DNA from: a virus
Strand: one strand, 5' to 3'
Virus record (IMG/VR): IMGVR_UViG_3300012920_000022
Location: 71,756 to 135,755 of that record
Length of the DNA: 64,000 nt
Shown here: in pieces, positions 2-61,903 of the stretch
Numbering within the stretch: position 1 is the stretch's first letter
How the letters are laid out: every line of letters starts with the position of its first letter
Made by a program: the position numbers and the translations under genes
The notes under the pieces: generated by a model
Database searches by the model: none
The model's input: the letters and a program-made list of their open reading frames with translations, nothing else
Told to the model about the DNA's origin: nothing

Positions 2-745
2 GTGAAATATCCAATATATTGTTTAGAATATGGTGTTGAATTATATTATTTTAAATCCATTAATGAACTCACCATAGAAAACTGGTTTTTTGGTGAATTA
101 CCAGATTCTTTATTTAATCTAACTAATCTAACTAGTTTGAACATATTTAATACTCATATAACCAAAATTCCCGATAATATCGGGAATTTAACCAATTTAT
201 GCACATTAAATATAAAATATAACAAGAGATTGACCAAATTACCAGAATCTATTGGTAATTTGGTCAATCTCACAGATTTATGTTTATCTGATAATGGTAT
301 TAATAGTCTACCAGAATCTATTGGTAAACTTGGTAAATTGCACACATTAAATACAACAAATAATCAATTATCCCATGGACTTCCAGAAACAATTGGCAAT
401 TTGAAGAATCTTCAAATTCTTCAAATTGCCAATTGTTTCTTAACTAAATTACCGAAATCTATTATTAAATTGCACAATTTAACAAAATTATATATTAATA
501 ATAATTCTATTACTAAATTACCGGAATCAATAGGTGAATTAAAAAGCTTAACTCATATAATTTTTAATGATAATTATATTACCAAATTACCGAAATCAAT
601 GGGTGATCTGGATAATTTGATTTGTTTGGATATTTCTAATAACCAAATATCAAATAATGTTAGTAAATTAAATGAAATGAAGAATTTGCGTATTTTTAAT
701 AACAACTATAATAATAGTGAATTACATGAAATTCACTTTAAATGA
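2..745 (+). CDS. Leucine-rich repeat protein (LRR-1), 5' end outside the window
   Basis: 23-aa repeats LxxLxLxxNxLxxLPESIGxL; starts inside the family N-cap (YPIYCLEYGVE). Confidence 0.93.
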   Translation: MKYPIYCLEYGVELYYFKSINELTIENWFFGELPDSLFNLTNLTSLNIFNTHITKIPDNIGNLTNLCTLNIKYNKRLTKLPESIGNLVNLTDLCLSDNGINSLPESIGKLGKLHTLNTTNNQLSHGLPETIGNLKNLQILQIANCFLTKLPKSIIKLHNLTKLYINNNSITKLPESIGELKSLTHIIFNDNYITKLPKSMGDLDNLICLDISNNQISNNVSKLNEMKNLRIFNNNYNNSELHEIHFK

Positions 746-1370
746 AATAAAGAAAATGGACTATAATAATTTAGATGATCATATAGATGGTTTAGTTAAC
801 ATATTAGATTCTATAGAACCCAATGGATCTGTATACTTATTAACTGGTTCTAATGGATCTGGGAAATCACTCATAAGATCACAGCTACCACACTATATAT
901 CTAGAAAATTAAATGTTGATGCTGGTAGTTGTACTGCTTCAACTAGCATGGCTTTGAGAACTGGTTCTAACCCAGAAATGGGTGGTCTTAGTGGAATGAT
1001 GAGGGATACTGGATGGTTGCCCACAAGTATGGAAACTTTTGATAATATAATTGGTTTATTGAAAGTTAAAGATAGATTTTTAACTATAGATGAGCCTGAA
1101 ATAGGCATGGGGGAAGAAACTATTATGTCATTGTGTAGCATGCTCAATGATAAACTCAAAGAATTATCATCAGAAGAATTTAAGGGTTGTATGATAATAA
1201 CACATAACAGATATCTAGTCGAAAATTTGGATTATGACTATTTTTTAAATACTGATGGTTATTCCAGCAAAAACGATTGGTTAAATAGAAAAATCATCCC
1301 TATTAACATCGATGAATTGATGGATAATAAACTATCAAAAGCAATAAACAACAGGACAAATAAAAAATAG
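717..1370 (+). CDS. Small ABC/AAA-type P-loop ATPase
   Basis: Walker A GSNGSGKS, Walker B FLTIDEPE, H-loop IITHNR. Confidence 0.8.
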   Translation: MNYMKFTLNEIKKMDYNNLDDHIDGLVNILDSIEPNGSVYLLTGSNGSGKSLIRSQLPHYISRKLNVDAGSCTASTSMALRTGSNPEMGGLSGMMRDTGWLPTSMETFDNIIGLLKVKDRFLTIDEPEIGMGEETIMSLCSMLNDKLKELSSEEFKGCMIITHNRYLVENLDYDYFLNTDGYSSKNDWLNRKIIPINIDELMDNKLSKAINNRTNKK

Positions 1371-1371
1371 G

Positions 1372-1890
1372 ATGTCAACTATAATATACGATGCTTACAA
1401 ATATGATGGTAATTTACAATCACTTATGGATGAATTACCCAGAGTAAGAATTGATTTCCACAAACACATAGAATCTAATCTTAAATCTTTATTTAATGAT
1501 GAGATAATGGATGCAGATAATGCATATCAATCAGTTAAAAATATGGCAAAATCTGATATGAGATGGATTCAAGAATATGAAGATACATGTATACAAGTAT
1601 ATGTGTGTGAAGACATAATATACATACAATTATTTGGAATGATAAAAAGCATACACATACATGATGATTTAATAAAGAAATTATATGATTTTTCCTTTGA
1701 TGACAGATGTATGGATGATAGTGAAAAAGATTGGTGGAAGAGTAGAGAAAAAATCTGGGGGAAAATATTTCATAAATCACCGATACCATTATATGCTGGA
1801 CTATCATATAGTATCGGTGATTCCAATATTATGTTACTTGACACAATAAGGAAAATAAGAGGTGAAAAGCCAATATATGGATACGGATAA
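1372..1890 (+). CDS. Hypothetical protein
   Basis: 172-aa ORF tightly packed in the operon. Confidence 0.7.
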   Translation: MSTIIYDAYKYDGNLQSLMDELPRVRIDFHKHIESNLKSLFNDEIMDADNAYQSVKNMAKSDMRWIQEYEDTCIQVYVCEDIIYIQLFGMIKSIHIHDDLIKKLYDFSFDDRCMDDSEKDWWKSREKIWGKIFHKSPIPLYAGLSYSIGDSNIMLLDTIRKIRGEKPIYGYG

Positions 1891-2959
1891 TAAAATATTA
1901 CAATTATTAAGCAGTGATGATGATGCCAATATTAAATTAGCATTTAGCATTGTTAAACCATTACAGTATGGGGATTCTGTGGCTGTAAAGTTAAGAGAGT
2001 TTCCATATTATTGTTTGGAGCATGATCTGGAGATGGATTTTATGGTTGAATTATGTAAATTAACCATAAAACATGTAAAATTCAATAAATTACCAGAATC
2101 TATTGGTAAATTGACTAAATTGACTAAATTGACTATTGAGGATACTGGGATATCAAAACTACCAGAATCTATTGGTAAACTAATTAATCTTAAAACGCTG
2201 TCTATTATTGGTCATACCATAACCAAACTACCAGATGCCATAGGTGATTTGACCAATTTAAGATGGTTAAATATTGAGAGAGGTACATTATCAGAACTAC
2301 CAGATGCCATAGGTAATCTGGAAAATTTGGATATATTATCTATTGTTAAAAATAATTTGAATTCATTACCAGAATCTATTGGTAAACTCAATATGTTGAC
2401 TATGTTGACTATTAAGTATACTGGGGTATCAAAACTACCGGAATCCATAAGCAATCTGGTAAACTTAAAGCAATTAACCATTGTGGATAGTATGTTATTA
2501 AGTTTACCAGATTGCATAGCTAAATTAGTAAACCTAGACACATTATCTATTCCTGGTAATTTTATTACTAAATTACCAAAATCAATAGGTAATCTAAATA
2601 AACTCACCAGGGTTGATATTAGTGGAAATCAGTTAGTGGAACTACCAGAATCAATAGGTAATTTGATAAACTTAATTTCATTGTATTTACATGACAATAC
2701 CATAGCTAGATTACCAGAATCTATTGTAAAATTACGACAATTGTTGTGTTTAGATTTATCAAATAATAACTTATTTGATTTACCCAAAGAATTTACCAGT
2801 ATGGTTGGTTTACAAGAATTATCTTTATTTAATAATCAACTTATGGATCTCCCACCAACCATATCAAATATGGTTGGTTTAACAACTATAAATGTACGTA
2901 GTAATAATTTTAATAAAATACCCGTATTTTATCATACTCCCATAACTATTTTAACATGA
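1877..2959 (+). CDS. LRR protein (LRR-2)
   Basis: N-cap ILQLLSSDDDANIKLAF...FPYYCLEH followed by about 12 LRRs; ATG at 1877 preferred to the track start at 1862. Confidence 0.93.
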   Translation: MDTDNKILQLLSSDDDANIKLAFSIVKPLQYGDSVAVKLREFPYYCLEHDLEMDFMVELCKLTIKHVKFNKLPESIGKLTKLTKLTIEDTGISKLPESIGKLINLKTLSIIGHTITKLPDAIGDLTNLRWLNIERGTLSELPDAIGNLENLDILSIVKNNLNSLPESIGKLNMLTMLTIKYTGVSKLPESISNLVNLKQLTIVDSMLLSLPDCIAKLVNLDTLSIPGNFITKLPKSIGNLNKLTRVDISGNQLVELPESIGNLINLISLYLHDNTIARLPESIVKLRQLLCLDLSNNNLFDLPKEFTSMVGLQELSLFNNQLMDLPPTISNMVGLTTINVRSNNFNKIPVFYHTPITILT

Positions 2960-3813
2960 TGGATGATAATATATTAATATTATTAGATGGTGATGATATT
3001 AATATTAGATTAGCTTTTACCATGGTTAAATCATTGAATTATGATGAAGTTGTTTCCGATAGATTAAGAGAATTCCCGTTATATTGTTTGGAATATGGTG
3101 TGGAAATGGATTATATGATCAATTTAAAGAGTTTAAAAATTGATCATATGGGGATTGATAAATTACCAGATTCTATCGGGGAATTAAAAAATCTTATATC
3201 TCTGGATATAAGTCACAACCATCTCATGTACCTACCAAATAGTATTGGGGAATTAAAAAATCTTGAACAATTATGGTTAAATAATAATTTTTTAGTTGAA
3301 TTACCTGAATCGATCAAGAATCTATGTAAACTCAACATGTTGAGTTTACATGATAATGAATTTAACCATTTTCCCGAATCAATATGCAAATTACAAAATA
3401 TTCAGTGGATAGATTGTGAAAATAATCTAATATATGAATTACCAGATTCTATCGGGGAATTAAAGAATTTGAGAGAACTAAGTTTTAATCATAATTATAT
3501 TAGCAAGTTGCCAGATTCTATCGGGGAATTAAAGAATCTAAGATCTTTGGATGTTGGTTTTAATAAAATGATTGAATTGCCTGATACTATAGGAGGATTA
3601 TGTAAACTATTTAGATTATCTGTTTGTGATAACTATATATCTGAATTACCAAAATCCATATCAAAACTAAAACATATTAGTTCCATAGATATAAATGATA
3701 ATCCTATCGTTCACATTCCAGAATTTATATATGAATTAGAAAGCTTAAATTATTTACATCATAATGATATAACCATCAATTTAAAAACTTCCGAAACATG
3801 GAAAATAAGGTAA
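2956..3813 (+). CDS. LRR protein (LRR-3)
   Basis: N-cap DDINIRLAF...FPLYCLEYGVE; LPDSIGELKNL repeats; ATGA overlap with LRR-2. Confidence 0.93.
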   Translation: MMDDNILILLDGDDINIRLAFTMVKSLNYDEVVSDRLREFPLYCLEYGVEMDYMINLKSLKIDHMGIDKLPDSIGELKNLISLDISHNHLMYLPNSIGELKNLEQLWLNNNFLVELPESIKNLCKLNMLSLHDNEFNHFPESICKLQNIQWIDCENNLIYELPDSIGELKNLRELSFNHNYISKLPDSIGELKNLRSLDVGFNKMIELPDTIGGLCKLFRLSVCDNYISELPKSISKLKHISSIDINDNPIVHIPEFIYELESLNYLHHNDITINLKTSETWKIR

Positions 3814-4889
3814 TTAGTTTAATAAATAGTGATGATATTACTAATATAGATTTAGCATTTACACTAATTAAATCTATATATGCAAATGATAGTTATAGTG
3901 AAACAATATTATCTGAAATCAAATCATATCCTACATATTGTTTAAAATATGGTATAGCATTATCTTATATTAATAGATTGGATATATCCAATCTTGATGA
4001 ATTTAATCTATTAATCTATCATATATCTGAATTAACATCACTATATTATTTAAATATATATGATATAAATTTAAATGAATTACCCTCTGAAATTGGTGAT
4101 CTAATAGAATTGCGTAGGTTGGATTTGAATAATAACAACCTACGCACATTACCTGATTCTATTGGGAATTTACATAATCTATGCTGGTTATCCATAAACT
4201 ATAATAGATTAGATATTTTCCCAGATTGCATTACTAAGTTATATAATTTAAGATCATTGTTTATAACTGGTAATGGATTGTATGAATTACCAGAATCAAT
4301 AGGCAAACTGAAGAATTTATCCAGTTTACATGCTGGTAACAATTATTTTATTTCAGGCTTACCAGAATCAATAGGAGAATTAAAGAAATTACGTAATATT
4401 AGCTTTGTGAATAGTAGGCTTAACACATTACCTGATTCCATAGGTGAATTGGAAAACTTACAGACTGCTAATTTATTCTATAATCTTATCCCTAGAGTAC
4501 CAGAATCAATAGGAGAATTAAAGAAATTACAAGAACTGAATCTTAACAATAATGAAATTAGTGAATTACCAGAATCAATAGGTAAATTGATAAATCTAGA
4601 ATTATTATATCTTAATTCAAATGAGCTACAAGATATACCATCATGTGTTATTGAATTAAAAAATTTAAAAGAATTACACATTGATAATAATTATTTGTAT
4701 GTAATTCCTGAATCAATGGGTGAATTAACTAATTTACAAGAGTTAAGTTTGGCTAAAAACGAGCTACAGGATCTCCCATCATCAATCAATCAACTAATGA
4801 AATTAAGAGAATTGAATATATCTGAAAATTATATTGATGATTTACCGTGGTATCTATATGACATGAATGATCTTATAGTTATTAGATGA
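3798..4889 (+). CDS. LRR protein (LRR-4)
   Basis: N-cap LINSDDITNIDLAF...YPTYCLKYG; about 12 LRRs. Confidence 0.93.
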   Translation: MENKVISLINSDDITNIDLAFTLIKSIYANDSYSETILSEIKSYPTYCLKYGIALSYINRLDISNLDEFNLLIYHISELTSLYYLNIYDINLNELPSEIGDLIELRRLDLNNNNLRTLPDSIGNLHNLCWLSINYNRLDIFPDCITKLYNLRSLFITGNGLYELPESIGKLKNLSSLHAGNNYFISGLPESIGELKKLRNISFVNSRLNTLPDSIGELENLQTANLFYNLIPRVPESIGELKKLQELNLNNNEISELPESIGKLINLELLYLNSNELQDIPSCVIELKNLKELHIDNNYLYVIPESMGELTNLQELSLAKNELQDLPSSINQLMKLRELNISENYIDDLPWYLYDMNDLIVIR

Positions 4890-12681: not shown

Positions 12682-14763
12682 TTAAATTATAGAATAAATG
12701 AATTTTAAATCGATATTATTGGTACATGTTATTATAATTTCTGGTTTCTCAATACCATTTAATTCATTATATTGTATTGCTACAACCCTTTTTGAATAAT
12801 TGCTAGGTAATGAAAATCTATTGGGTTTATCAGTATATATTATTAGTCCAAAATTATTGAAATCTATTTTTTCATTAATTTTTATTGATAATATTTGACC
12901 ATTATTCCATCTGTTAGTAGTATCATCAATAAACAAAACTAAGTTTTGTTTCATTATTCTAGTTTGATCATCATTATGCAAAATTAATGTGTCATATATT
13001 CCAAGGTTATATGAGTTAAGTCTTGACGATTCACTACCAGAAATATTAAATTTGGTATTGATTACCGAAGAATATCTTTGTCTGGTGTTGCTAATAACAA
13101 TATTGTTACCATCATTATTGACTGATATTCCTCTAATGCCAATTATATTGAATAAACTATCAATGGAAACAGAGGTTTGACCAGATAATATCTCATTAAT
13201 TTTTGTGGTTATTTCATCAATTTTTCCACTAAAGTCAACCTCCCCGACTTCTAATATAGATTCTAATATGGAATTTATTTGTTGCTGCATACCATTATTA
13301 ACAAGAGATTGATTAGTCAGTTCTAATTGATTAATCCTTTCTCTCATTTCATTATTCTCAAGTATAAGTCTTTCCACATTTCTTGTTAATGCCGATATTT
13401 TAGTTACTGCTTCTGCAAATAATTGAGTAGAAAATGTATTATAATCATTTACATTAACTTCCACGTCGGGTATGACATTATCAGCATTAACATCAAATTT
13501 CAATGATAATCTTACTCCATATGATGTTCCATTCTTTTTTAATAAAGGATCTGGTTTTACTTTGGTTATGGTTGGGATTTTTGCCGCTGCTGTACTAAAG
13601 GATTCAAGATCTTCTAAAAATAGTATACCAAATAAGTTATGAGTACTACCATCTTCTGGTCTATTTTCATCAAATAATTCATAATATATCAATATTGCAT
13701 TAAATTCATAATCTTTTGATTTATCCAATGCTGCATAATCATAGAAATTAAGAAGATTTCCAAAATCCTGGAAATCTTTATACGATGATGTGTCAAATTC
13801 AATTGATATACCATCCAATCTATTACGAACATAATCTATGGTTTTTCCACTACCACTATCTGTTCTATTGATTTCATCATTGCTGGAATCATTAAAATCA
13901 ATATCTGTGTAATATGCATTTTCACCATTTACTGATTGATCCTTAAACCAATACTCATTTGGTGTTCCATTACTAGTATAATCATATGATCCAGTCGGAA
14001 CATCCATATCATAGAATGCTCTAACATCTAGACCAGCATTACTTGGATTATTAGAACTGCTTTGACCTTGAATAAATTCTATATTATCGCTACCAGTTTG
14101 TTGGATAAATTTACTTGGATGGTAATTTTCATCTGATATGGTTTTAAATAAACACACTGGTGTATCACCACACTGAGTTGGCAATGTCATTAATATTTCC
14201 TTAAATGCATTAAATTCATTTCTATAATTATTTTCTTGGCTTATTTCTCCTATGAATTTAACCACTCTATTGTATAATGATGAATCATCTTCCTCAACAT
14301 ATCTATTTTCTACCAACGATTCATCACTAGTAGAATCTCTAAATCTTATCGCACCTATTTCTTTCAACCATTTCCAAAATACTCTTTCTGATACATTAAG
14401 TGTATTATCAGAATTATAATTTGGTTGTTTTGTTAACAATGTTTCTAAATTTAGTGCATAATTTTGAAAAGATTCCACAAAATCAAATCTATCTCCCTCT
14501 GGTGGTGGTGATGCTACACTTAGTCCTTTTGTGAAATGACCCTCTATGTTTTCGAATTGTATATTATTATTACCAGCTGATTCTTGTATTGGTGGGATTT
14601 CCAGCATAATAAATTTACTAAAATTAAATTTAACGTTGCTATTATTAAATGCTGATAGAGTTAAATCTTCACTTGCAGATGGGAAGGTTATAAATGTACC
14701 TTTTTTACCAAGTTTAGTTATGAGAGGAGTATTTATCATTTTATATTTATTTATTACTGACAT
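12682..14763 (-). CDS. Probable virion structural protein with coiled-coil segment
   Basis: 693-aa acidic ORF with a heptad region (LTRNVERLILENNEMRERINQLEL); true start may be Met9 at 14739, just after a TAATAAATA motif. Confidence 0.55.
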   Translation of the reverse strand: MSVINKYKMINTPLITKLGKKGTFITFPSASEDLTLSAFNNSNVKFNFSKFIMLEIPPIQESAGNNNIQFENIEGHFTKGLSVASPPPEGDRFDFVESFQNYALNLETLLTKQPNYNSDNTLNVSERVFWKWLKEIGAIRFRDSTSDESLVENRYVEEDDSSLYNRVVKFIGEISQENNYRNEFNAFKEILMTLPTQCGDTPVCLFKTISDENYHPSKFIQQTGSDNIEFIQGQSSSNNPSNAGLDVRAFYDMDVPTGSYDYTSNGTPNEYWFKDQSVNGENAYYTDIDFNDSSNDEINRTDSGSGKTIDYVRNRLDGISIEFDTSSYKDFQDFGNLLNFYDYAALDKSKDYEFNAILIYYELFDENRPEDGSTHNLFGILFLEDLESFSTAAAKIPTITKVKPDPLLKKNGTSYGVRLSLKFDVNADNVIPDVEVNVNDYNTFSTQLFAEAVTKISALTRNVERLILENNEMRERINQLELTNQSLVNNGMQQQINSILESILEVGEVDFSGKIDEITTKINEILSGQTSVSIDSLFNIIGIRGISVNNDGNNIVISNTRQRYSSVINTKFNISGSESSRLNSYNLGIYDTLILHNDDQTRIMKQNLVLFIDDTTNRWNNGQILSIKINEKIDFNNFGLIIYTDKPNRFSLPSNYSKRVVAIQYNELNGIEKPEIIITCTNNIDLKFIYSII

Positions 14764-14844
14764 ACTGTCAGTTTGTGTAATTTGGCACGATTTTTGTAAT
14801 ATTTTATGTAAAGATTTTTTAACTTATAAATTATTAATATCATG
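14756..14844 (+). promoter_or_regulatory. Regulatory cassette copy 1: TGACA-N3-TGTCA palindrome + sigma54-like element + conserved leader
   Basis: ACTGACATACTGTCAGT (14756-14772), TGGCACGATTTTTGTAA at 14783, leader identical to the copy at 24454-24517. Confidence 0.85.
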
Positions 14845-15456: not shown

Positions 15457-15482
15457 TTATTTTAAAAATATCAGTTAATCTA

Positions 15483-15514: not shown

Positions 15515-15537
15515 CATATATATTAAATATTACATAT

Positions 15538-16218
15538 ATGAAAAACGAAGAAATATTGAAAATATTGAAACATATAAATGATCCAATTTCCCTCGATAGT
15601 CTTTTTGCGACTATTAAAAAAGATCGCATTAAATATAATGGTGAAGTTGCTAAAATTATTAAGGAAAAATTTATATTTTACTGTATAAAATATAAATTAG
15701 AAATTAAACACTTGAAAAAGATTACTGAACTGAATCTATCAGATACTATTGGTGATCATTTTGAATTACCACCATCAATAGATGTTATGGTTAATTTAAA
15801 GAAGTTGGTTATAAATAATACCAGGATAGTGAGTTTACCAGAATCGATGTGTAAATTGAAAAAATTAGAAAGATTATCTTTAAACCGCAACCAAATTATA
15901 AATTTACCAAATTCCATTGGTAAATTGAAAAATCTGGAGAGACTATCATTAAATGACAACCAAATTATAAGTTTACCAAATTCCATTGGTAAACTAAAAA
16001 AATTAAAGTACTTGTCTTTGCGTAATAATAGATTATCAAAATTGCCATCCACTATCAATAAATTAACTAATTTAATGGTAATGTATCTAGATAATAATGA
16101 ATTGGAAGAATTGCCATTTGAGGACATTGGACTTACAGAACTAACACTTAATGGTAATATCATCGACACCAGCAGAGAAATTAAATGGATCTATGGTTGG
16201 GAAAAACCATGGATATGA
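15538..16218 (+). CDS. LRR protein (LRR-5)
   Basis: LERLSLNxNQIxxLPNSIGKLK repeats; variant N-cap with FIFYCIKY. Confidence 0.92.
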   Translation: MKNEEILKILKHINDPISLDSLFATIKKDRIKYNGEVAKIIKEKFIFYCIKYKLEIKHLKKITELNLSDTIGDHFELPPSIDVMVNLKKLVINNTRIVSLPESMCKLKKLERLSLNRNQIINLPNSIGKLKNLERLSLNDNQIISLPNSIGKLKKLKYLSLRNNRLSKLPSTINKLTNLMVMYLDNNELEELPFEDIGLTELTLNGNIIDTSREIKWIYGWEKPWI

Positions 16219-16269: not shown

Positions 16270-16927
16270 ATGACAAGTAAAGAAATAGTAGATATACTAA
16301 CTACCATAAATGATCCCATTATTATTGATAGTCTTTTTGCGACTATTAAATATAAAAATATTAAATATAATGGTAAGGTCAGAAATATGATTAGAAAACA
16401 TTTCATATACTATTGTATTAAATATGAACTAGAGGTTAAATATCTGAGAAAAATTACTATTTTAAACCTATCAGGTAGTATAGGTTTACATCATGAATTG
16501 CCTTCACCCATAGATGTTATGGTTAATCTAGAAAAGTTAGTTATACAAAATACAAAGATGGTTACCTTACCAGAATCAATTGGTAATCTTAAAAGATTAA
16601 AATCACTATGTCTAAATAATAATAGGCTGGTTACCTTACCAGAATCAATTGGTAATCTTAAAAGACTGAACTTTTTATATTTGAATAATAATCAACTTAC
16701 AGAATTACCAAATACGATTGGTAAGCTAAAAATATATGAGCTATATTTGAATAATAATCAACTTACAGAATTGCCAAATACCATCAGTAATTTAACCAAT
16801 TTTAAATGTATTACATTTGAACAACAATCAGCTCATAGATTTACCATCAACTGATAATATGGAGTGGTTGGTTGAATTACTGCTAGATAATAATATAATG
16901 GATAATAGTAGACAATTTAAATTATGA
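16270..16927 (+). pseudogene. LRR-6, paralog of LRR-5 with a +1 frameshift near the 3' end
   Basis: Removing one T from the run at 16800-16803 restores NLNVLHLNNNQLIDLP...LLLDNNIMDNSRQFKL ending at TGA 16925-16927, parallel to the LRR-5 C-terminus; as written the ORF ends at 16854. Confidence 0.75.
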
Positions 16928-17536: not shown

Positions 17537-17537
17537 T

Positions 17538-18095: not shown

Positions 18096-18652
18096 TGGAA
18101 GATTTTACTGATAAACTACTGGAATTATTAAAATCCGATGATGAATCTAATGTAAAAACTGCTCTTAATATAATGCAAGGTGATATACCATGTGATATAC
18201 AAAGATTATCACCATATTTGAATCATTATCCGGATCTTTGCTTAGATTATAGTATAACGGATTGGATGTTAAATCGTAAAGAAATATTCATAGTAAACAC
18301 CAAACTTGAAAAATTACATCAAAATATAGGTAAGTTAATAAATCTTAAAAGACTGTATTTATACAATAATAATTTATAAGAATTACCAAATGAATTATCC
18401 GAACTAGTAAATCTTGAGAGATTAGATTTACATGGTAATAAATTAACTCATCTATCAGGATGGATTATGAATATGCCTAATTTGAAATACCTGGATATAA
18501 GTGAAAACCCATTATTAGATGTGCCAACTGCGATATTTAGGGATCATAAACTAAAGGAAGTTATATTACCACTTAGATTAAAAATAAGTTTTGGTATCCA
18601 TGCATACAGACACGGTAAATTTAAATCAAAAACGCTATATAGATTTTTGTAA
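18095..18652 (+). pseudogene. LRR-9 with in-frame TAA
   Basis: TAA at 18377-18379 interrupts NNNL*ELPNELSELVNLERLDLHGN; read-through gives 558 nt, the same length as LRR-7 and LRR-8. Confidence 0.85.
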
Positions 18653-45135: not shown

Positions 45136-46872
45136 ATGGCGCATAAAAATAAAACTCATATTTTTATATATGAGGAAATGGATATAATGTTAAGTCAGTC
45201 AGATAAGGAAAATGTATACACTGGTATATGTGCAGACTTTAATGGAAGGAATGAAAATAACAGATTATATGACAAAGATGACTATTTAAAACATTTGCCA
45301 TATTTAAATGAGTTAATTAAAGATAATAAACTATATGGGGAAATAGATCACCCACATCGATATGAGGTGGATGAGGATAAGATAAGTCACCAAATAATAG
45401 CCCTATGGTATGATGAAGAGGCTAATCAAGTAATGATAGCCATAAAATTACTTGATACTGATGAAGGAAAAAGAGCCAAAGCGAAAGCTCTGGAAAATGG
45501 TAATCAGATAAATATAAGTTCCAGAGCATCCGGATACATGGATGAAGAATTAAACGTAGAATTGGAACGCATTTACACATATGACATAGTAGACGTACCA
45601 GGATTTAAAAATGCTACACTCAAACCATTGAATGAGAATAGAAACAATGGGAACAACTCGTCGATATATTTATTAGTTATAAATGAAAATAAAATTGTGC
45701 ACAATATGGATGACAATAATAAATCCACCAACATAGATGATTTAATTAACGAAAATAGATTGCTTAGATCTACTGTAAATAGCTTGCTTGAAAAAGCAAA
45801 TGAATCAGATAGGAAGTTGAATGCAGTGGTAGCATATTTATCTATGATCAATGAAGATTCAAATCATCATAAAAATTACACTAACAGTATTGCCAAATAC
45901 GTGAATAAACTCACTGATCACGTTGATAAAAATTCTGAGTTTACCAACAAACTTGCAGATCACGTTGATGAAAGCAATAGGTATGTGAATAAACTCACTG
46001 ATCACGTTGATAAAAATTCTGAGTTTACCAACAAACTTGCAGATTATGCAGATTACCTTGGGATTAATCTCAATAAATCTATGAGTTTCATTAATGAAAA
46101 TTCTGAGTTTACCAACAAACTTGCAGATTATGCAGATTACCTTGGGATTAATCTCAATAAATCCATAAACGTAATGGATGAAAATTCTGATTTTACCAAC
46201 AAACTTGCAGATTATTCAAATTATATGAATGAAAATTTGAATAATGTTATATCAAAATTGGATGAAAATTCTGATTTTACCAACAAACTTGCAGATGCTT
46301 ATGATAATACTGCTGATTTCATAAACAATAAAGTGGGTGCTGGTAAAATTAAACCGAAAAAGAAAAAGACCGAAAAAGAAAAATCAATGGAGTTGGTTGA
46401 AAAAGTGAAAAGTAGACAAAATGACAAACAACTCCAAATATTAGTATCCAAATATCCCTTCGTAAAAAGTTTAAATGAATCATATTTAACAAAATTCAAA
46501 TTACTAAATTCCAATAAAAAACGAATTATATCTGATTTTATCAATGAAAACAATGATGTTACAGTATCATCATTAATGGGTAAAATTGATGAAATAAATA
46601 ATGTAACTACATTAGAAGAACAATTTGAATCCAGGATACCCCAATACATATTTCCAATATGGGAATCATTATCTACAACCGATAAACATAATATAGTATC
46701 CCAATATAATAGCAGAAAGATTGAAAGTAATGAAGACAATAAAAGATTTTGGGAGTCTATAGATTTGAGGAAGTATAAAAATAGTAAAATCGTTAATGAG
46801 AACCATGGTGGTGGTGAATATAATATGTCGGGATATAGCATGGATGATGTAGACAAATTGCTGAAATTTTAA
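45136..46872 (+). CDS. gp21: Prohead protease (gp21-like) fused to a coiled-coil scaffold region
   Basis: NENNRLY, LYGEIDHP, ISH, ISSRASG, TYDIVDVPGF; long repetitive helical C-terminal region; directly upstream of the capsid gene. Confidence 0.88.
   Translation: MAHKNKTHIFIYEEMDIMLSQSDKENVYTGICADFNGRNENNRLYDKDDYLKHLPYLNELIKDNKLYGEIDHPHRYEVDEDKISHQIIALWYDEEANQVMIAIKLLDTDEGKRAKAKALENGNQINISSRASGYMDEELNVELERIYTYDIVDVPGFKNATLKPLNENRNNGNNSSIYLLVINENKIVHNMDDNNKSTNIDDLINENRLLRSTVNSLLEKANESDRKLNAVVAYLSMINEDSNHHKNYTNSIAKYVNKLTDHVDKNSEFTNKLADHVDESNRYVNKLTDHVDKNSEFTNKLADYADYLGINLNKSMSFINENSEFTNKLADYADYLGINLNKSINVMDENSDFTNKLADYSNYMNENLNNVISKLDENSDFTNKLADAYDNTADFINNKVGAGKIKPKKKKTEKEKSMELVEKVKSRQNDKQLQILVSKYPFVKSLNESYLTKFKLLNSNKKRIISDFINENNDVTVSSLMGKIDEINNVTTLEEQFESRIPQYIFPIWESLSTTDKHNIVSQYNSRKIESNEDNKRFWESIDLRKYKNSKIVNENHGGGEYNMSGYSMDDVDKLLKF
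45901..46296 (+). repeat. Coding tandem repeats in the scaffold region
   Basis: AAAATTCTGA(G/T)TTTACCAACAAACTTGCAGAT recurs five times at an 84-nt period (NSE/DFTNKLAD). Confidence 0.85.
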
Positions 46873-46884: not shown

Positions 46885-48618
46885 ATGAGTAGAGAAAATT
46901 TAATAAAACAACGCATATATGATTCCTGGATTCCAAGAATCAAAAAAAGAATTAAAGCTGGTGAAAAATCCGGTAAAATATTCAATAATATATCAGAAGC
47001 TAAACTGAAGAAAATAGCAGAAATGGCTGATGTTAGATTCAGATCATTACAAAGACCCAAATTGATTACTGAAAGTACAGCAACATTAGATGGAACTCCT
47101 GGTAGACCAAACTTTGATTTTGGTAACAACCCAATGCAGGGCTTACAGGATTTCTATACCACAAAAGGCTCCGCAGAAGTTTATCAAAGTTTGTTTGGTG
47201 TATTTGTAGAAGCTGCTGCTACAACGGTGATATTTGATCTATTACCCATGTTGGTGCAAACTAAATCATCTGGTAGTATATATATAGCAGAACCTATTTA
47301 TTCCAATGGTAGATTGGAAAGTACTGAAAATAGGGTTGATGTTGTTCAAGTCAAAACAAGTCAAACAGGTAATCCTGCTGCTCTGGTAGTCGGTAACACA
47401 TACACATTAAAAACTGCTGCTACTGGTGGTGAGGATATAGCAGATGTAATCTATGTGGGGAAACACCGGGTTAGTGGTCATCCAGTGTTTAGAATAGAAA
47501 CTAATGGTAATGATAACTCCGGTGGTGGAGGTACAGACTGGACTAGCGCGCTTATTAAAGATTGGTTTGATGGAACATCCGGTATATATGATGATGCATC
47601 AAATTACTATTCATTTGATGCAGATAGTGTTGATTATGTAGAGGGATTCCTAAATAACATCATGGGATTCTCAGGTGCAGGTTTAAATAATGATAAACCT
47701 TGGTACATAGGTAGAAATGATGGTAAAACATATAATGAACATATGTCAAGGGATACTGGTAGAAGAACTGAGTATAGATCGTCTGCTATAAGAACTTGGC
47801 ACCGTAATTTTTCTCCTGGAACTGTTCATTTAGATATGGAATTCCTAACAGAGGATATTCAAGATGCAATGATGGATCATTCATTTGATCTAATCGCATT
47901 TGGTGATCAAATACTTGCAGATCAATTGAGCCAGCAAATGAATGACCACGGTCTTGCCAGAATGTTTGCCAATGGATGGTCACACCATCACGCACTACAT
48001 ACTGGTAGTGATGGATCATTTAACTTAAATTTCGTGTTGGATGAAAGTAGCAATACTGGTAGTAGTTTGGATTATCTTGGTAAGGAAGATACATTGTTAA
48101 ATATTAGTGGTGCTGCGGGTGTTTTACCAGCAAGTGGTGCAATATCAGAAAATCTATCAACTCTACAAAGAAGGCTTGTAACCAGAATAGGGTATGCTAG
48201 TAGTGTAATACACACTAGAGCCAGAAAAGGTAAAGGTGACCAAGTGGTAATGAACACCAAATTTGGTAATGCAGTAGAGGATATAAGAGGATTCGTTCCC
48301 GTTCCCTTCGATAATGATTTAAATGATGGGAATTTGGCATACATAGGCACATTTAAAGGCATGAGAGCTTATGTAGATCCATTAATGGATCTGAATGATG
48401 ACAGAATCAATGTTAGCAGACATGGTGGTGAAAAAGATCCTGGGATCAAATTTGCCCCATATATCTTGGCGGAAAAAATCAGTACCACGGCTGAGGGTAC
48501 CATGGCTGAAAAAACAGCCTTGAAATCAAGGTATTCTGTTGTAGAAGCTGGTAGTAATCCAGAACTCAATTATTTGACTTTTGTAGTAGAAGAAGCAGAT
48601 GGTTACGGATTAGTTTAA
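46885..48618 (+). CDS. gp23: Major capsid protein, T4 gp23-like
   Basis: Follows the protease; C-terminal YIGTF.GMRAYVDP, PGIKFAPYI, LKSRYSVV motifs typical of the gp23 family. Confidence 0.88.
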   Translation: MSRENLIKQRIYDSWIPRIKKRIKAGEKSGKIFNNISEAKLKKIAEMADVRFRSLQRPKLITESTATLDGTPGRPNFDFGNNPMQGLQDFYTTKGSAEVYQSLFGVFVEAAATTVIFDLLPMLVQTKSSGSIYIAEPIYSNGRLESTENRVDVVQVKTSQTGNPAALVVGNTYTLKTAATGGEDIADVIYVGKHRVSGHPVFRIETNGNDNSGGGGTDWTSALIKDWFDGTSGIYDDASNYYSFDADSVDYVEGFLNNIMGFSGAGLNNDKPWYIGRNDGKTYNEHMSRDTGRRTEYRSSAIRTWHRNFSPGTVHLDMEFLTEDIQDAMMDHSFDLIAFGDQILADQLSQQMNDHGLARMFANGWSHHHALHTGSDGSFNLNFVLDESSNTGSSLDYLGKEDTLLNISGAAGVLPASGAISENLSTLQRRLVTRIGYASSVIHTRARKGKGDQVVMNTKFGNAVEDIRGFVPVPFDNDLNDGNLAYIGTFKGMRAYVDPLMDLNDDRINVSRHGGEKDPGIKFAPYILAEKISTTAEGTMAEKTALKSRYSVVEAGSNPELNYLTFVVEEADGYGLV

Positions 48619-55062: not shown

Positions 55063-55620
55063 TTATTTCTTTAATATTCTAGTTCTACCTCTACCCAACG
55101 ATGGTATGTCATATATTATATCATAGTTATCGATATTATTATTGACAATATTAATAACTCTAATATTACATAAATTTACTATGGTATCTGGTAATTTATT
55201 GATATGGTTATTATGTAGATTTAACCATCTCAATGATACTAGATCCCCAATTGAATCTGGTAAACTAGTCAATAGATTATTGCTTAAATCCAACAAAACT
55301 AGATTTTTCAATTTACCAATTGAATCTGGTAAACTAGTCAATGAACTACCAATTAATCTAAGTGATTTTAAATTTGATAATTGATGTATCGAATCAGGTA
55401 TGGTGCCAACAGGTTTATTATAAACATATATATCTTTTTCACCATCCAATAAGGTGGGTAAAAACTGTATACACATCTCATGATGCATCTTTAATTTAGA
55501 TATAACATTATTGGGTATATTATTTATACCCATGCCCAGGGTTAATTGAAATGCCAGTTCTATGTTTTCATATAAACCGGAATCTAACAAATTACCAATT
55601 TTATTTAAATTCTCTTTCAA
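55063..55620 (-). CDS. LRR protein (LRR-10)
   Basis: N-cap LLDSGLYENIELAF; LTSLPDSIG repeats. Confidence 0.9.
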   Translation of the reverse strand: MKENLNKIGNLLDSGLYENIELAFQLTLGMGINNIPNNVISKLKMHHEMCIQFLPTLLDGEKDIYVYNKPVGTIPDSIHQLSNLKSLRLIGSSLTSLPDSIGKLKNLVLLDLSNNLLTSLPDSIGDLVSLRWLNLHNNHINKLPDTIVNLCNIRVINIVNNNIDNYDIIYDIPSLGRGRTRILKK

Positions 55621-59784: not shown

Positions 59785-59785
59785 A

Positions 59786-60964
59786 TTAGAATATTTTAGG
59801 TATATAAACAAAATTTTTATTAACCTTATCTTTACCTATGGACAACAATATTGTATTTATAGGGTCTAAAAATGTCTTATTGTACATAGAAGATAGGTTT
59901 ATTTTTGGTGCTATCTCTTTTGGAAAATCTCCATTTAACGGAAAACCAAATGGCTGATCATTGATATCGTAATACCAGCATATTTTATCACCATTGGTTA
60001 TTAATGGATATGAATTCAACAGATTATGTTTTTTTATCATGTGATTATACCTAGCAGATGCTTTAACTTGTATGGGAGTTCCAGAATTTACCTTCACCCC
60101 ATGCTGATCATCTTGTATGACATTCTTAGTATATGTGGTTATTCTTTCAGTTTTAGATATGGAGTAATAATTTAAATCATCAGCATGAAGCTTATACATA
60201 TCCTTTATAGATTTGGCTTTGGATAATATTTTCTCATGGCTAGCATTATTAATTATCAATTTAACCATATCTAACATGGAATCTCTTGAAAATTTGCTAT
60301 AAACATATTTAATAATTTCAAGACCTTTCACGGAAAATTTATCCATGAATTCATATGTTTGTTTTTTATACCATTGGCTAACCTTCACATATCTTTTTTT
60401 AGTAGCCCATAATATTTTATAACAAAATTCCTCTAATTCCAACCTAGGTTCCCCTATATCTATATCACCAGCACCCATTGCAGCGAAATATTCCCTGGAT
60501 TTATCCAGATAATAAGGATAGATGTGATAATTCCATACTTTCATGGAAAAATCTAACATATTCATATCAGTGATTGTGGAATCATATATAGTTTGCATAT
60601 CTAAAAATATGGAATCTGTATCCATATATAACACTACATCACTATCAATTGGATTATTAAACGATATATCATCATCATTCTCTATTGATGATTCCCATTC
60701 TTGACTGAAAAAATCATTTATAATTTTTTCAGTCAATTTAATTAAGCCAACTGCTGATGCGGTAACTGATTTAGCAACATCTCTCATGTAATCAACAAAA
60801 TAGGGATAACCCATAACTCCATAAACACTATTTAGAAGTATTTTTAGTGCCTGATCAGCATTTCTATGCAAAGATGATAATCTAGTTAATCTTTGGATTT
60901 CTTTTTTTATATCATCAGAATTTGTTAAATCAAGATTGGGGTCTATATGTACAAAATCTTCCAT
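59786..60964 (-). CDS. gp43: Family B DNA polymerase, C-terminal subunit (motifs B and C, thumb)
   Basis: Motif B QALKILLNSVYG, motif C YMDTDS, KKRY, VKGLE. Confidence 0.92.
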   Translation of the reverse strand: MEDFVHIDPNLDLTNSDDIKKEIQRLTRLSSLHRNADQALKILLNSVYGVMGYPYFVDYMRDVAKSVTASAVGLIKLTEKIINDFFSQEWESSIENDDDISFNNPIDSDVVLYMDTDSIFLDMQTIYDSTITDMNMLDFSMKVWNYHIYPYYLDKSREYFAAMGAGDIDIGEPRLELEEFCYKILWATKKRYVKVSQWYKKQTYEFMDKFSVKGLEIIKYVYSKFSRDSMLDMVKLIINNASHEKILSKAKSIKDMYKLHADDLNYYSISKTERITTYTKNVIQDDQHGVKVNSGTPIQVKASARYNHMIKKHNLLNSYPLITNGDKICWYYDINDQPFGFPLNGDFPKEIAPKINLSSMYNKTFLDPINTILLSIGKDKVNKNFVYIPKIF

Positions 60965-60967
60965 ATG

Positions 60968-61903
60968 CTATATTAATATTTCTTCACAATTACATAATAA
61001 TTCCAAACAATGGGCTTTATCAACAATATTATTATTGCGCAAATCAATGCGTTTCAAATTATTCAAATCACCAATGGATTCTGGTAAATGAGTTAATTGA
61101 TTATCGTTCAAATAAAGATAATCCAACTTTTTTAATTTACCAATGGATTCTGGTAAATGGGTTAATTGATTTACATTAAAATTTAACCCAATAATTTCAC
61201 TCATATTACCGATGGATTCTGGTAAATGAGTTAATTGGTTATCAAATATGCTTATTTGATAAACCTTAGTTAAATTACCAATAGATTCTGGTAAATGAGT
61301 TAACTGATTAGTGAAACATTCTATCCATTCTAAATTGGTCAATTTACCCATAGATTCTGGTAAATTGACCAATTTATTGGAACTGACTACTAACTCTTTA
61401 AGCTTTTTCAAATTACCAATAGATTCCGGTAAATGGGTTAATTGATTACGTTGAGCATCCAGTGATTCTAAATTAACCAATCTACCAATAGAATCTGGTA
61501 GATTGGTTAATTTATTTTTATGTACATGTAAACTTATTAATTTGGTTAGATTACCAATAGAATCTGGTAGACTGGTTAATTGATTAAATTGCAGATGGAG
61601 ACTAGATATGCCCCATATATAATCTCCAAAATTTGTGGGTAATTCACATATAGATTTATCACCTAAAAGCAGGTGTTTCCTATCACATAATATGCTTGGC
61701 ATATAATGAATACATATATGGGGATATAAGTCTGCAAATATGGATTTGATATTATCAGGTATCCTATCAACTGGTATACCTGTACATATTTGGAATGCTA
61801 AATGGATATTATTGATGTCATCAGATTTCAATAATTTCAGCAAACTCCTTTCTGTATATTCAGGTAATACCATATCATTCATTATCATTGATACCCAACA
61901 CAA
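60968..61903 (-). CDS. LRR protein (LRR-11)
   Basis: N-cap LLKSDDINNIHLAF...YPHICIHY; NQLTHLPESIG repeats; true start probably a few codons downstream. Confidence 0.93.
   Translation of the reverse strand: MCWVSMIMNDMVLPEYTERSLLKLLKSDDINNIHLAFQICTGIPVDRIPDNIKSIFADLYPHICIHYMPSILCDRKHLLLGDKSICELPTNFGDYIWGISSLHLQFNQLTSLPDSIGNLTKLISLHVHKNKLTNLPDSIGRLVNLESLDAQRNQLTHLPESIGNLKKLKELVVSSNKLVNLPESMGKLTNLEWIECFTNQLTHLPESIGNLTKVYQISIFDNQLTHLPESIGNMSEIIGLNFNVNQLTHLPESIGKLKKLDYLYLNDNQLTHLPESIGDLNNLKRIDLRNNNIVDKAHCLELLCNCEEILI

What the first reader, a model, noticed from the sequence alone, without database searches (positions are those of the whole stretch)
2..61903. Expanded repertoire of eleven capped LRR genes in a phage genome
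Seen: eleven LRR genes (about 8 kb) in two tandem arrays (2-4889, 15538-18652) and two singletons (55063, 60968). Each has a 23-aa LxxLxLxxNxLxxLPESIG repeat, a variable repeat number (about 4-12), no signal peptide, no effector domain and a shared helical N-cap (LLxSDDxxNIxLAF...YPxxCL(E/K)Y) with an invariant Cys. Known: LRR solenoids are adaptable binding scaffolds (lamprey VLRs, plant NLRs, Leptospira LRR families); I know of no large LRR families as a standard part of T4-like phages. Inference: a phage-encoded library of binders with a common docking cap and variable recognition surface, for example inhibitors or decoys of host immune sensors, or adaptors that bring many targets to one partner. 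This is the best candidate for an undescribed system here.
Basis: partly seen in the sequence, partly recalled or inferred. Interest (0 to 1): 0.9.

Follow-up and report, generated by a model that had tools for sequence, protein, structure and literature searches.

The report
Phage family of 26 LRR binders
An uncultured marine giant relative of phage T4 spends about a tenth of its genome on 26 small leucine-rich-repeat binding proteins related to a family from Microscilla-type bacteria, and eight of them carry a tag that resembles T4's capsid-loading signal.

Summary
All 11 LRR genes are real (Pfam). One is cut by the window edge and one has an in-frame TAA.

The window is part of a 135.8-kb viral contig. 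A second contig overlaps both of its ends, giving a circle of about 182 kb (GC 28%) with 26 clear LRR genes, about 10.5-11% of the genome.

Each protein is a five-helix, HEAT-like N-cap with a conserved Cys, followed by 23-residue repeats.

The cap is not a phage invention. It is rare (63 hits among 1.84 billion representatives), always precedes LRRs, and is concentrated in Microscilla (18-19 copies per genome) and a few other Cytophagales.

No target or function is shown. My best reading is intracellular protein binders. Fourteen sit behind one shared promoter module.

Eight copies outside the window carry a leader, MxxYIKNFxxFINE. The same tag sits on LRR and non-LRR proteins of a distant 462-kb phage and resembles T4's capsid-targeting sequence. 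These eight may be packaged and injected.

This scan has noted similar leader-tagged LRR families in other jumbo phages.

The parts
2..745 (+). LRR gene 1 of array 1. It is cut by the window edge; the full gene is contig 71643-72500 (285 aa) with the cap.
   Evidence: Pfam LRR_14 7e-36 and LRR_8 4.4e-26. Full ORF and cap.
717..1890 (+). Two non-LRR genes inside array 1: a small P-loop ATPase-like protein (717-1370) and a 172-aa protein with no match (1372-1890).
   Evidence: Only weak hits (AAA_16, AAA_29, PHROG ABC-like, PADLOC mad3 7e-06).
1877..2959 (+). LRR gene 2 (360 aa from the ATG): cap plus 12 detected repeats.
2956..3813 (+). LRR gene 3 (285 aa). This is the member I modelled.
   Evidence: AF2 pLDDT 95.8: five cap helices (residues 2-54), then a regular strand/helix solenoid. 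Best PDB matches are Leptospira LIC10831 and SHOC2.
3798..4889 (+). LRR gene 4 (363 aa). It lies directly upstream of a 1553-aa gene and a tail-fibre gene.
14758..14812 (+). Shared promoter-like module: palindrome TGACA-N3-TGTCA followed by a 31-nt core beginning TTGGCACG. It heads the cassette 14842-18652.
   Evidence: The core has 8 copies with at most 3 mismatches on the circle, plus 2 looser copies.
15538..16218 (+). LRR gene 5 (226 aa), with a divergent cap subtype.
16270..16854 (+). LRR gene 6 (194 aa), sister of gene 5.
   Evidence: The pair has SH-aLRT 98 in the quick tree.
16979..17536 (+). LRR gene 7 (185 aa).
17538..18095 (+). LRR gene 8 (185 aa).
18095..18652 (+). LRR gene 9, interrupted by an in-frame TAA at 18377-18379. 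Probably a recent pseudogene.
55063..55620 (-). LRR gene 10 (185 aa, TTG start), second cap subtype, among replication genes.
   Evidence: It groups with a Microscilla copy in the quick tree (SH-aLRT 91).
60968..61888 (-). LRR gene 11 (306 aa from the ATG), second cap subtype, 9 detected repeats.
45136..46872 (+). Prohead protease of the T4 gp21 type, fused to a coiled-coil scaffold-like part.
   Evidence: Pfam Peptidase_S77 3.3e-09, 37 bits against a cut-off of 27. It matches 215 phage records, including T4-like phages.
46885..48618 (+). Major capsid protein, Gp23 type.
   Evidence: Pfam Gp23 1.3e-11. Best phage hit is Flavobacterium phage MaF61 at 36.7% identity.
27511..28014 (+). Marginal item: a 166-aa ORF with a weak cap-like N-terminus and no LRR.
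   Evidence: Cap HMM E 0.0034 among the ORFs of the circle. No Pfam family.

Best explanation
The eleven genes belong to a 26-member paralogous family of small, soluble, LRR-only proteins. The phage is an uncultured marine jumbo phage of about 182 kb, distantly T4-like, whose host is probably a Cytophagales bacterium of the Microscilla type.

Each protein has a HEAT-like helical N-cap of about 55 residues with a conserved Cys, then 23-residue repeats of the SHOC2/Leptospira type. The cap is the N-terminal cap of a bacterial LRR family. The phage lineage shares it with Microscilla and has multiplied it by tandem duplication, repeat gain and loss, and substitution on the concave face. One copy has recently been broken.

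Inferred mechanism: the proteins act inside the infected cell as stoichiometric binders (inhibitors, decoys or adaptors) of host proteins, each paralogue with its own target surface.

Delivery appears to be two-tiered. The window's copies have no leader, and many are transcribed from one shared promoter module. Eight paralogues elsewhere in the genome carry a T4-CTS-like leader ending in I-x-E. I infer that these are loaded into the prohead, trimmed by the gp21-type protease and injected with the DNA, like T4's internal proteins.

Shown: gene family, architecture, fold, bacterial cousins, leader, protease, shared promoter module.
Inferred: binding function, targets, packaging, host.
For: - Family and fold: Pfam LRR hits on the 10 of 10 submitted. 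23-residue period and position-specific variability. AF2 pLDDT 95.8. Best PDB matches are Leptospira LRR proteins and SHOC2, E 1e-15 to 1e-18, 31-35% identity.
- Size of the family: 49 LRR_8 matches on the contig; the census on the closed circle gives 26 genes totalling 19.2 kb.
- Phage ownership: uniform low GC, and two contigs that overlap at both ends at 100% identity.
- Bacterial cousins: the cap profile finds 63 of 1.84 billion representatives at E <= 1e-3. Ten are the phage's own, two look like false positives, and 45 of the other 51 show an LRR motif by my regex. One is Microscilla marina WP_002694415. One Microscilla genome has 37 matches at E <= 0.01. In Cytophagales 13 of 201 genomes match, two of them with 18-19 matches. 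In the phylum-wide sample none of the 400 other genomes matches.
- Co-regulation: by my reading of the gene map, 5 of about 10 copies of the promoter module head cassettes that hold 14 of the 26 LRR genes.
- Leader: eight genes share MxxYIKNFxxFINE(S), with M1, I5 and E14 invariant in the 9-row alignment that also holds one outside homologue. AF2 gives the leader pLDDT 43 for residues 1-10, against 88 or more from residue 21 on.
- Portability of the leader: the distant 462-kb phage LR756500.1 has ten ORFs with this leader or a near variant of it. Six are LRR proteins and four are not; one of the four is a DUF2201 metallopeptidase/VWA protein.
- T4 precedent: the T4 CTS is MKTYQEFIAE (PMC8442874, passage). 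gp21 cuts after L/I-x-E, and CTS residues 4 and 7 target while 8 and 10 direct processing (PMC9026906, passages). T4 internal proteins are described as diverse anti-restriction proteins that share only the CTS (PMC3012670, passage).
- The phage has a Peptidase_S77 protease and a Gp23-type capsid protein.
Against: - No target, binding partner, expression or virion datum exists. No RNA run was listed, and the tool says this blank is not evidence either way.
- None of the eleven window genes has the leader, so packaging cannot explain them.
- In this phage the leader is found only on LRR genes. Portability is shown only in the distant relative.
- The excess of 'INE' near N-termini (22 of 241 ORFs, 6.3 expected) comes mostly from two paralogue families and fades once these are collapsed.
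- dN/dS on the concave face is about 0.9 with saturated dS (pS about 0.6). That is compatible with relaxed constraint as well as with diversifying selection.
- Neighbours of the Microscilla cousins are ordinary housekeeping genes, so they give no functional clue.
- The LRR proteins are not basic like T4 internal proteins; pI ranges from 4.4 to 9.6.
- Array 1 sits directly upstream of tail genes on the same strand, and several other copies lie inside virion modules. This also fits a structural role.
- The host assignment rests on the distribution of one domain only.
Confidence: 0.5

Rival explanations
1. Virion-surface or tail-associated proteins. The conserved cap anchors each LRR to a common site on the baseplate, fibre or capsid, and the variable solenoid binds cell-surface or environmental ligands. 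This would be a branched receptor-binding or adhesin set that widens host range.
For: Array 1 lies directly upstream of, and on the same strand as, a 1553-aa protein and a 774-aa tail-fibre/collar protein (PHROG tail families down to 1.5e-28). Other copies flank a tail sheath, a virion structural protein and a 1007-aa protein with a weak tail hit. A constant N-terminus with a variable C-terminus is the layout of multi-receptor-binding-protein phages (recalled, not tested here).
Against: The cap is shared with dozens of bacterial cytoplasmic-looking proteins that have no phage context. No trimerisation or fibre domain is present. The two singletons sit among replication genes. The leader on eight copies points to the inside of the head, not the outside.
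Confidence: 0.13
2. Host mimicry through the cap. Microscilla-type hosts use their own capped LRR proteins as sensors or adaptors that dock by the cap onto one hub. The phage copies keep the cap in order to compete for that hub as dominant-negative decoys, or to redirect it.
For: The cap is the best-conserved part across phage and bacterial members. Cys and Phe are invariant or nearly so in A1; Cys and Glu are invariant in the 20 non-phage representatives aligned in A2, some of them Microscilla proteins. The family is highly expanded in exactly one bacterial lineage. In some representatives of unknown origin the cap+LRR unit follows another domain (FGE-sulfatase-like, DUF6624).
Against: N-caps of LRR families are conserved for structural reasons anyway. 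No hub candidate is known. The neighbours of the bacterial genes are unrelated to each other. One phage copy (circle 172429-173079) has lost the Cys half of the cap and still looks intact.
Confidence: 0.12
3. Immunity-type LRR proteins (Imm-LRR). They would neutralise toxins, either polymorphic toxins of neighbouring cells or abortive-infection toxins of the host, one paralogue per toxin.
For: LRR immunity proteins in heterogeneous polyimmunity loci are described, and Microscilla marina is rich in polymorphic toxins (PMC3482391, passages). Tandem arrays resemble polyimmunity loci.
Against: None of the 20 immediate neighbours of 11 Microscilla loci has a toxin domain. No toxin domain was found among the flanking phage genes I scanned.
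Confidence: 0.08
4. A largely functionless, drifting expansion: duplication-prone repeat genes tolerated in a large genome.
For: One copy carries a nonsense codon and one is degenerate (circle 22888-23436). Concave-face dN/dS is about 0.9.
Against: Twenty-five of the 26 frames are open. Scaffold positions are under constraint (dN/dS 0.36). The promoter module and the leader are conserved. About 10.5-11% of the genome is devoted to the family.
Confidence: 0.07
5. Assembly chimera or host DNA at the LRR loci.
For: Close bacterial homologues exist.
Against: GC of the LRR genes is 24-29%, against 36-41% in the Microscilla loci. The copies are scattered over more than ten places in the genome, between phage genes. 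The circle closes through two contigs. Identical short contigs, including LRR segments, occur in two further marine runs.
Confidence: 0.01

Closest known systems
T4 internal proteins IPI, IPII, IPIII (and Alt) with the capsid-targeting sequence MKTYQEFIAE
   Same: A short N-terminal tag with aromatic residues that ends in I-x-E. A gp21-type (Peptidase_S77) protease and a Gp23-type capsid protein are present. Unrelated or fast-diverging cargo sits behind a constant tag. IPI* is an injected inhibitor of a host restriction enzyme.
   Different: The cargo here is an LRR solenoid of 200-310 residues, not a small basic protein. Only 8 of the 26 genes carry the tag and none of the 11 window genes does. 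Packaging and cleavage are untested.
Capped LRR proteins of Microscilla and other Cytophagales (e.g. Microscilla marina WP_002694415, 'leucine-rich repeat domain-containing protein')
   Same: The same N-cap profile with the same conserved Cys, directly followed by 23-residue LRRs. There is no signal peptide, and the proteins are small and LRR-only. There are many paralogues per genome.
   Different: The bacterial genes have 36-41% GC. At the 12 loci fetched they stand alone or as two or three copies within a few kilobases, among housekeeping genes. Many end in a C-terminal cap motif that most phage copies lack. Their function is also unknown.
Leptospira interrogans LRR proteins (LIC10831, LIC11098, LIC12759) and human SHOC2
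   Same: The closest solved folds: 23-residue repeats with an LPxxIGxL convex face, 31-35% identity, TM-score by query 0.72-0.76 for the best-fitting chains.
   Different: The matches cover about 210-270 alignment columns against 285 residues, and the tool does not list which residues. I could not establish that the helical cap has a counterpart. The Leptospira proteins are reported as secreted or surface proteins (recalled).
LRR genes of the 462-kb metagenomic phage LR756500.1
   Same: A distant relative by capsid protein and protease-scaffold. Multiple LRR genes (18 matching places). The same leader type, MKYIKxYxxFIxE.
   Different: It has no Microscilla-type cap; the best cap-profile hit is E 0.003. 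There the leader also sits on non-LRR proteins.
Imm-LRR immunity proteins of polymorphic toxin systems
   Same: Small cytoplasmic LRR binders in multi-gene loci (PMC3482391, passages).
   Different: No toxin partner lies next to the phage genes or the Microscilla genes I examined.

Membership tests
Leucine-rich repeat superfamily (Pfam LRR_8 / LRR_4 / LRR_14) | Tandem 20-30-residue units with LxxLxLxxN, scoring above the curated Pfam cut-offs | tested here: met
   The 10 of 10 submitted are above the cut-offs for LRR_8, LRR_4 and LRR_1, and 8 of 10 for LRR_14. 123 units of exactly 23 residues gave L1, L4, N9, L14, P15 and L21 at 84-98%.
Leucine-rich repeat superfamily (Pfam LRR_8 / LRR_4 / LRR_14) | Curved solenoid with a parallel beta-sheet on the concave face | tested here: met
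   AF2 pLDDT 95.8 with a regular strand/helix period. Foldseek finds LRR structures at E down to 6.6e-18.
Microscilla/Cytophagales capped LRR family (no Pfam model) | N-terminal helical cap of about 55-65 residues matching the cap profile, with a conserved Cys, directly followed by LRRs | tested here: met
   The cap HMM hits 24 of the 26 phage genes at E <= 0.01. The Cys is present in 25 of 26. The same profile hits Microscilla proteins at 1e-10 to 1e-21. Pfam has no model for the cap.
T4-type capsid-targeted internal proteins (CTS cargo) | N-terminal leader of about 10-14 residues with aromatic residues, ending in L/I-x-E | tested here: not met
   Not met for the 11 window genes, which start directly with the cap. 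Met for 8 paralogues outside the window.
T4-type capsid-targeted internal proteins (CTS cargo) | The genome encodes a gp21-type prohead protease and a Gp23-type capsid protein | tested here: met
   Peptidase_S77 at 37 bits against a cut-off of 27. Gp23 at 44.9 bits against a cut-off of 24.4.
T4-type capsid-targeted internal proteins (CTS cargo) | The tag is portable between unrelated cargo proteins | tested here: inconclusive
   In this phage it occurs only on LRR genes. In LR756500.1 it occurs on 6 LRR and 4 non-LRR ORFs.
T4-type capsid-targeted internal proteins (CTS cargo) | The protein is present in the virion, with the leader removed | not testable with these tools
   The phage is uncultured and no proteome is available.
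Imm-LRR immunity proteins of polymorphic toxin systems | Adjacent to a toxin gene, or inside a polyimmunity locus | tested here: not met
   None of 20 Microscilla neighbours has a toxin domain. The phage neighbours I scanned have none.
DGR-diversified binding proteins | A reverse transcriptase and a template repeat in the genome | tested here: not met
   RVT_1 has no match in either of the 2 contigs. I did not search for a template repeat.
Secreted or injected bacterial LRR effectors (YopM/IpaH/internalin types) | A signal peptide, secretion signal, E3 ligase or wall-anchor domain beside the LRR | tested here: not met
   Pfam finds no significant non-LRR domain. The N-termini show no hydrophobic stretch by inspection; no signal-peptide predictor was run.
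Known anti-phage defence proteins (PADLOC) | Match to a PADLOC model | tested here: not met
   Neither of the 2 LRR proteins I submitted matches.

The most novel reading that the evidence does not exclude
A two-tier phage arsenal of LRR 'antibodies'. Eight CTS-tagged binders are pre-loaded in the capsid and injected with the DNA. Eighteen leaderless binders are made from a dedicated promoter class. All are built on a cap borrowed from the host's own expanded LRR network, so the phage copies plug into, or jam, a host pathway that depends on that cap while each LRR face captures a different host protein. This would make LRR solenoids a general, evolvable counter-defence and takeover scaffold of T4-like jumbo phages, as the variable-lymphocyte-receptor scaffold is in jawless vertebrates.
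Probability: 0.15. Interest if true: 0.85.

Novelty: new variant of a known kind. Interest (0 to 1): 0.62.

Why it matters
If the reading holds, a tailed phage spends about a tenth of its genome on a diversifying set of protein binders built on one scaffold, and delivers some of them pre-made with its DNA. That would extend the T4 internal-protein principle (a constant loading tag with variable anti-host cargo) to a modular, repeat-based scaffold whose specificity can change by point substitution and by repeat gain and loss.

It would also link a phage repertoire to a lineage-specific LRR expansion in its probable host group. That opens a route to finding what the unexplained Microscilla LRR family does.

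Practically, the proteins are small, soluble and confidently modelled. They are good candidates for binder discovery and for testing against defence systems of Bacteroidota.

My six full-text searches for it found no description of such a family in tailed phages (one search looked for the related phage MaF61). A review of LRRs in dsDNA viruses (Matsushima 2021) was not held. Its text or supplements could bear on the novelty claim.

Tried and rejected
- Chimera or host contamination: rejected on GC, on the scattered positions of the copies, and on closure of the circle.
- DGR-type mutagenesis: no reverse transcriptase in either contig.
- Imm-LRR / polyimmunity reading: none of 20 Microscilla neighbours carries a toxin domain.
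- Defence-system homology: no PADLOC hit for the LRR proteins.
- Close relatives, needed to test turnover:
  - capsid-protein scan of viral contigs: none;
  - scan with the promoter core: only the second contig of the same phage;
  - word-based search with the leader-plus-cap part: only an own paralogue.
  Turnover between relatives therefore could not be tested. Only within-genome signs are available (a nonsense codon, a degenerate copy, varying repeat number).
- Positive selection: not demonstrable, because dS is saturated.
- Tree of caps: the careful search did not finish, and the quick tree on 71 columns is mostly unresolved. Eighteen of 24 phage caps fall in one group (SH-aLRT 92) together with 2 unlabelled representatives. 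The two window singletons group with a Microscilla copy (91), and two others with Cytophagales copies (93). Single versus multiple acquisition is not settled.
- ESM Atlas search by features: no usable hit. The search by structure gave HEAT-like neighbours for the 58-residue cap, which means little for so short a stretch.
- Small 'MKN..LP.RLGKF...INE' proteins: no match in phage records and no informative Pfam or PHROG family.
- Upstream regions of the leader-bearing genes: no shared late-promoter motif that stands out in this AT-rich DNA.
- Charge: the LRR proteins are not basic.
- Expression: no RNA holder listed.
- Read laying: two further marine runs hold short contigs identical to parts of the stretch, including LRR segments. 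None bridges a junction, and none covers the TAA at 18377.
- Complex prediction was not used. I claim no pair of binding partners, and the tool advises against enzyme-substrate pairs.

Full report
**What the DNA is**

The window has 24-34% GC throughout and no tRNA. It is bases 71756-135755 of a 135,755-bp viral contig that CheckV rates 55% complete.

The capsid protein (46885-48618) matches Pfam Gp23. Upstream of it lies a Peptidase_S77 (T4 gp21-type) prohead protease fused to a coiled-coil part (45136-46872).

The nearest capsid proteins are Flavobacterium phage MaF61 (36.7% identity), then Tenacibaculum, Sphingomonas PAU, Lak and 'huge' metagenomic phages. The protease matches 215 phage records, including T4-like cyanophages and coliphages. 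'T4-like' is therefore true only at a distance.

A second viral contig of 46,587 bp came to light through one of the cap hits. It overlaps both ends of the first contig at 100% identity, over 108 and 88 nt. Together they close a circle of about 182,146 bp at 28.4% GC. Another collection lists a 182,191-bp contig that carries the same proteins.

**The observation**

All eleven genes are real. Four details need correcting.
- Gene 1 is cut by the window edge.
- Gene 18095-18652 has an in-frame TAA at 18377-18379.
- Array 1 holds two non-LRR genes.
- The window genes have 3-12 detected repeats. Spacing is almost always exactly 23 residues.

From 123 units the consensus is L-x-x-L-x-(L/I)-x-x-N-x-(L/I)-x-x-L-P-(E/D)-S-I-G-x-L-x-N. 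Entropy is 3.2-3.7 bits at positions 2, 3, 5, 7, 8 and 10, and 0.8 bits or less at L1, L4, N9, L14, P15 and L21.

The cap is present in 16 of 16 contig genes with an intact N-terminus, and Cys44 is the only invariant column.

**Size of the family**

The contig holds 17 LRR genes. The closed genome holds 26, totalling 19.2 kb or about 10.5%. There is also one degenerate copy and one weak cap-only ORF.

The LRR genes have 24-29% GC, like the phage and unlike their bacterial homologues at 36-41%. This and the closure of the genome exclude a chimera.

**Structure**

AF2 models gene 3 at pLDDT 95.8. Five short helices (residues 2-54) are followed by a regular solenoid.

The best solved matches are Leptospira LIC10831, LIC12759 and LIC11098 and human SHOC2, at 31-35% identity over about 210-270 alignment columns. 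The tool does not list the matched residues, so a counterpart of the cap in those structures is not established.

The cap alone resembles HEAT/PBS-lyase-type hairpins in the ESM Atlas (TM by query 0.66-0.72). That is only a lead for 58 residues. Pfam has no model for the cap.

**Where the cap occurs**

A 66-position profile of the cap was run against 1.84 billion representative proteins. It gave 63 hits at E <= 1e-3.
- Ten are this phage's own proteins.
- Two look like repeat-driven false positives.
- Of the other 51, 45 show an LRR motif by my regex, and six (82-187 aa, mostly short fragments) show none.
- In the examples I scanned, the cap always precedes LRRs. Twice it lies behind another domain: FGE-sulfatase-like and DUF6624.

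One hit is Microscilla marina WP_002694415. One Microscilla genome has 37 cap matches at E <= 0.01.

At E <= 1e-5:

| Sample | Genomes with a match |
|---|---|
| Bacteroidota, phylum-wide | 1 of 401 (the Microscilla genome itself) |
| Cytophagales | 13 of 201 |

Two of the Cytophagales genomes have 18 and 19 matches; the other eleven have one or two.

The bacterial proteins start with the cap and have no signal-like N-terminus. Many end in a C-terminal cap motif.

The 20 immediate neighbours at 11 Microscilla loci are unrelated housekeeping, regulatory or helicase genes, with no toxin or defence domain.

So the cap is a family-specific N-cap shared with a narrow bacterial lineage. That points to a Cytophagales host and to gene exchange with it. 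It makes a purely structural role for the cap the default.

The quick tree on 71 columns is mostly unresolved. It suggests one large in-phage expansion (18 of 24 caps) plus two or three other subtypes that sit nearer to bacterial copies.

**Regulation**

A palindrome, (A)TGACA-N3-TGTCA(T), is followed after 8-12 nt by a 31-nt core, TTGGCACGATTTTTGTAATATTTTATGTAAA. The core occurs 8 times with at most 3 mismatches, plus 2 looser copies.

By my reading of the gene map, five of these copies head cassettes that hold 14 of the 26 LRR genes. These include both window arrays; the module of array 1 lies 121-175 nt upstream of the window. The others head non-LRR accessory genes.

The core resembles a sigma-54 -24/-12 element (GG-N10-GT). 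I did not test that further. Earlier notes of this scan say the same.

**The leader**

Eight paralogues, none in the window, have an extra N-terminus, MxxYIKNFxxFINE(S). M1, I5 and E14 are invariant in the 9-row alignment, which also holds one outside homologue.

AF2 gives the leader low confidence: mean pLDDT 43 for residues 1-10 and 73 for residues 11-20. The cap and repeats score 88 or more up to about residue 220, before the C-terminal tail falls off.

The 462-kb phage LR756500.1 is the best full-length protease-scaffold match and a distant capsid relative. It has 18 LRR-matching places but no Microscilla-type cap. Ten of its ORFs carry this leader type: eight begin MK(Y/F)IKx(Y)xx(F/Y)(I/L), and two begin with near variants (MKYIQ-, MKYIL-). 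Six of the ten are LRR proteins and four are not. Of the four, one is a DUF2201 metallopeptidase/VWA protein and three have no Pfam family.

The T4 capsid-targeting sequence is MKTYQEFIAE (PMC8442874, passage). In T4:
- gp21 cuts after L/I-x-E;
- CTS residues 4 and 7 target, and residues 8 and 10 direct processing (PMC9026906, passages);
- the internal proteins are described as diverse anti-restriction proteins that share only the CTS (PMC3012670, passage).

The match in pattern (aromatic residues, then F-I-x-E), the portability in a relative and the presence of the protease make a capsid-loading tag the best reading for these eight genes. I put it at about 55-60%.

Caveats:
- in this phage the tag is seen only on LRR genes;
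- the excess of 'INE' near N-termini (22 of 241 ORFs, 6.3 expected) is driven by two paralogue families;
- nothing is known about the virion.

**What the window genes do**

They lack the leader, so they are presumably made in the infected cell. No function is shown.

I commit to stoichiometric protein binding of host targets (inhibitor, decoy or adaptor). The grounds are the scaffold, the variability pattern, the absence of any other domain, the co-regulation with accessory genes and the T4 precedent.

Evidence that weakens this:
- concave-face dN/dS is about 0.9 with saturated dS;
- there is no defence-related homology;
- several copies lie next to virion genes.

Rivals and their odds are listed separately.

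**Novelty**

Only 7 of 50,697 phage records match a member at E <= 1e-3, and two of these have many places. My six full-text searches found no paper on expanded LRR families in tailed phages.

One paper reports a single weak LRR-like tail-module gene in a vibriophage (PMC10945359, passages). It cites a survey of LRRs in dsDNA viruses that I could not read.

This scan's own earlier notes describe several leader-tagged LRR families in other T4-like jumbo phages, one of them with Cytophagales cousins. They are AI notes, not independent evidence, but my results agree with them.

I class the finding as a new variant of a known kind: CTS-type cargo diversification and phage multigene families, here built on an LRR scaffold shared with the probable host lineage.

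Noticed in passing
window 24735-26189 (+) and 59786-60964 (-): The family-B DNA polymerase is split into two genes 33 kb apart on opposite strands. The first part holds the exonuclease domain plus DNA_pol_B profile positions 31-143. The second part starts at profile position 134 (Pfam). No intein or joining element was looked for.
   Followed up: partly
window 14758-14812, 21403-21433, 24486-24540 (-), 29424-29478; further copies on the contig at 47451, 63265, 68713 (-), 71580, 31967 (-) and on G001 at 1919 (-): About ten copies of a fixed module: the palindrome TGACA-N3-TGTCA, then a 31-nt core that resembles a sigma-54 -24/-12 promoter (TGGCAC-N5-TTGT), then an ATG 30-50 nt downstream. The sequence between core and ATG is also near-identical in several copies.
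   Followed up: partly
window 14842-15456, 21457-22197, 22241-22984, 22993-23616: A four-member paralogous family of 204-247-aa proteins with no PHROG match for the two members scanned and no Pfam match for those same two. Two members stand directly behind the promoter module, and one heads LRR array 2.
   Followed up: no
window 18377-18379: An in-frame TAA inside an otherwise intact LRR gene. It could be a recent nonsense mutation or an error. Only the run that may be the source of this DNA covers the base.
   Followed up: partly
G001 26098-27254 and 24646-25080; contig 11596-11979 and 18791-19123: A family of small (110-144 aa) proteins that begin MKNxxKLPxRLGKF and mostly have I-N-E about 17-22 residues in. 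Three stand in tandem inside a virion-gene module. They may be processed head proteins. They have no homologue in phage records.
   Followed up: partly
window 19726-21354 (-) and 46885-48618 (+): Further possible gp21-type cleavage sites: the 542-aa protein starts MASIFFRINE, and the capsid protein has KLITE-S near residue 63.
   Followed up: no
window about 63858-64000 (contig end): Hits offset in 24-nt steps show a 24-nt tandem repeat at the contig end. This is probably why the assembly broke there. The 45-bp difference between my circle and the 182,191-bp contig may come from it.
   Followed up: no
LR756500.1 (loci L058-L082): Only 699 ATG-started ORFs of 60 aa or more under table 11 in 462 kb, which may point to another genetic code. 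Its leader MKYIKxYxxFIxE sits on a DUF2201 metallopeptidase/VWA protein and on three unknown proteins, besides six LRR proteins.
   Followed up: partly
window 33170-34516 (-): An adenylosuccinate-lyase-type gene in the phage (Pfam ASL_C and Lyase_1). I did not check that.
   Followed up: no
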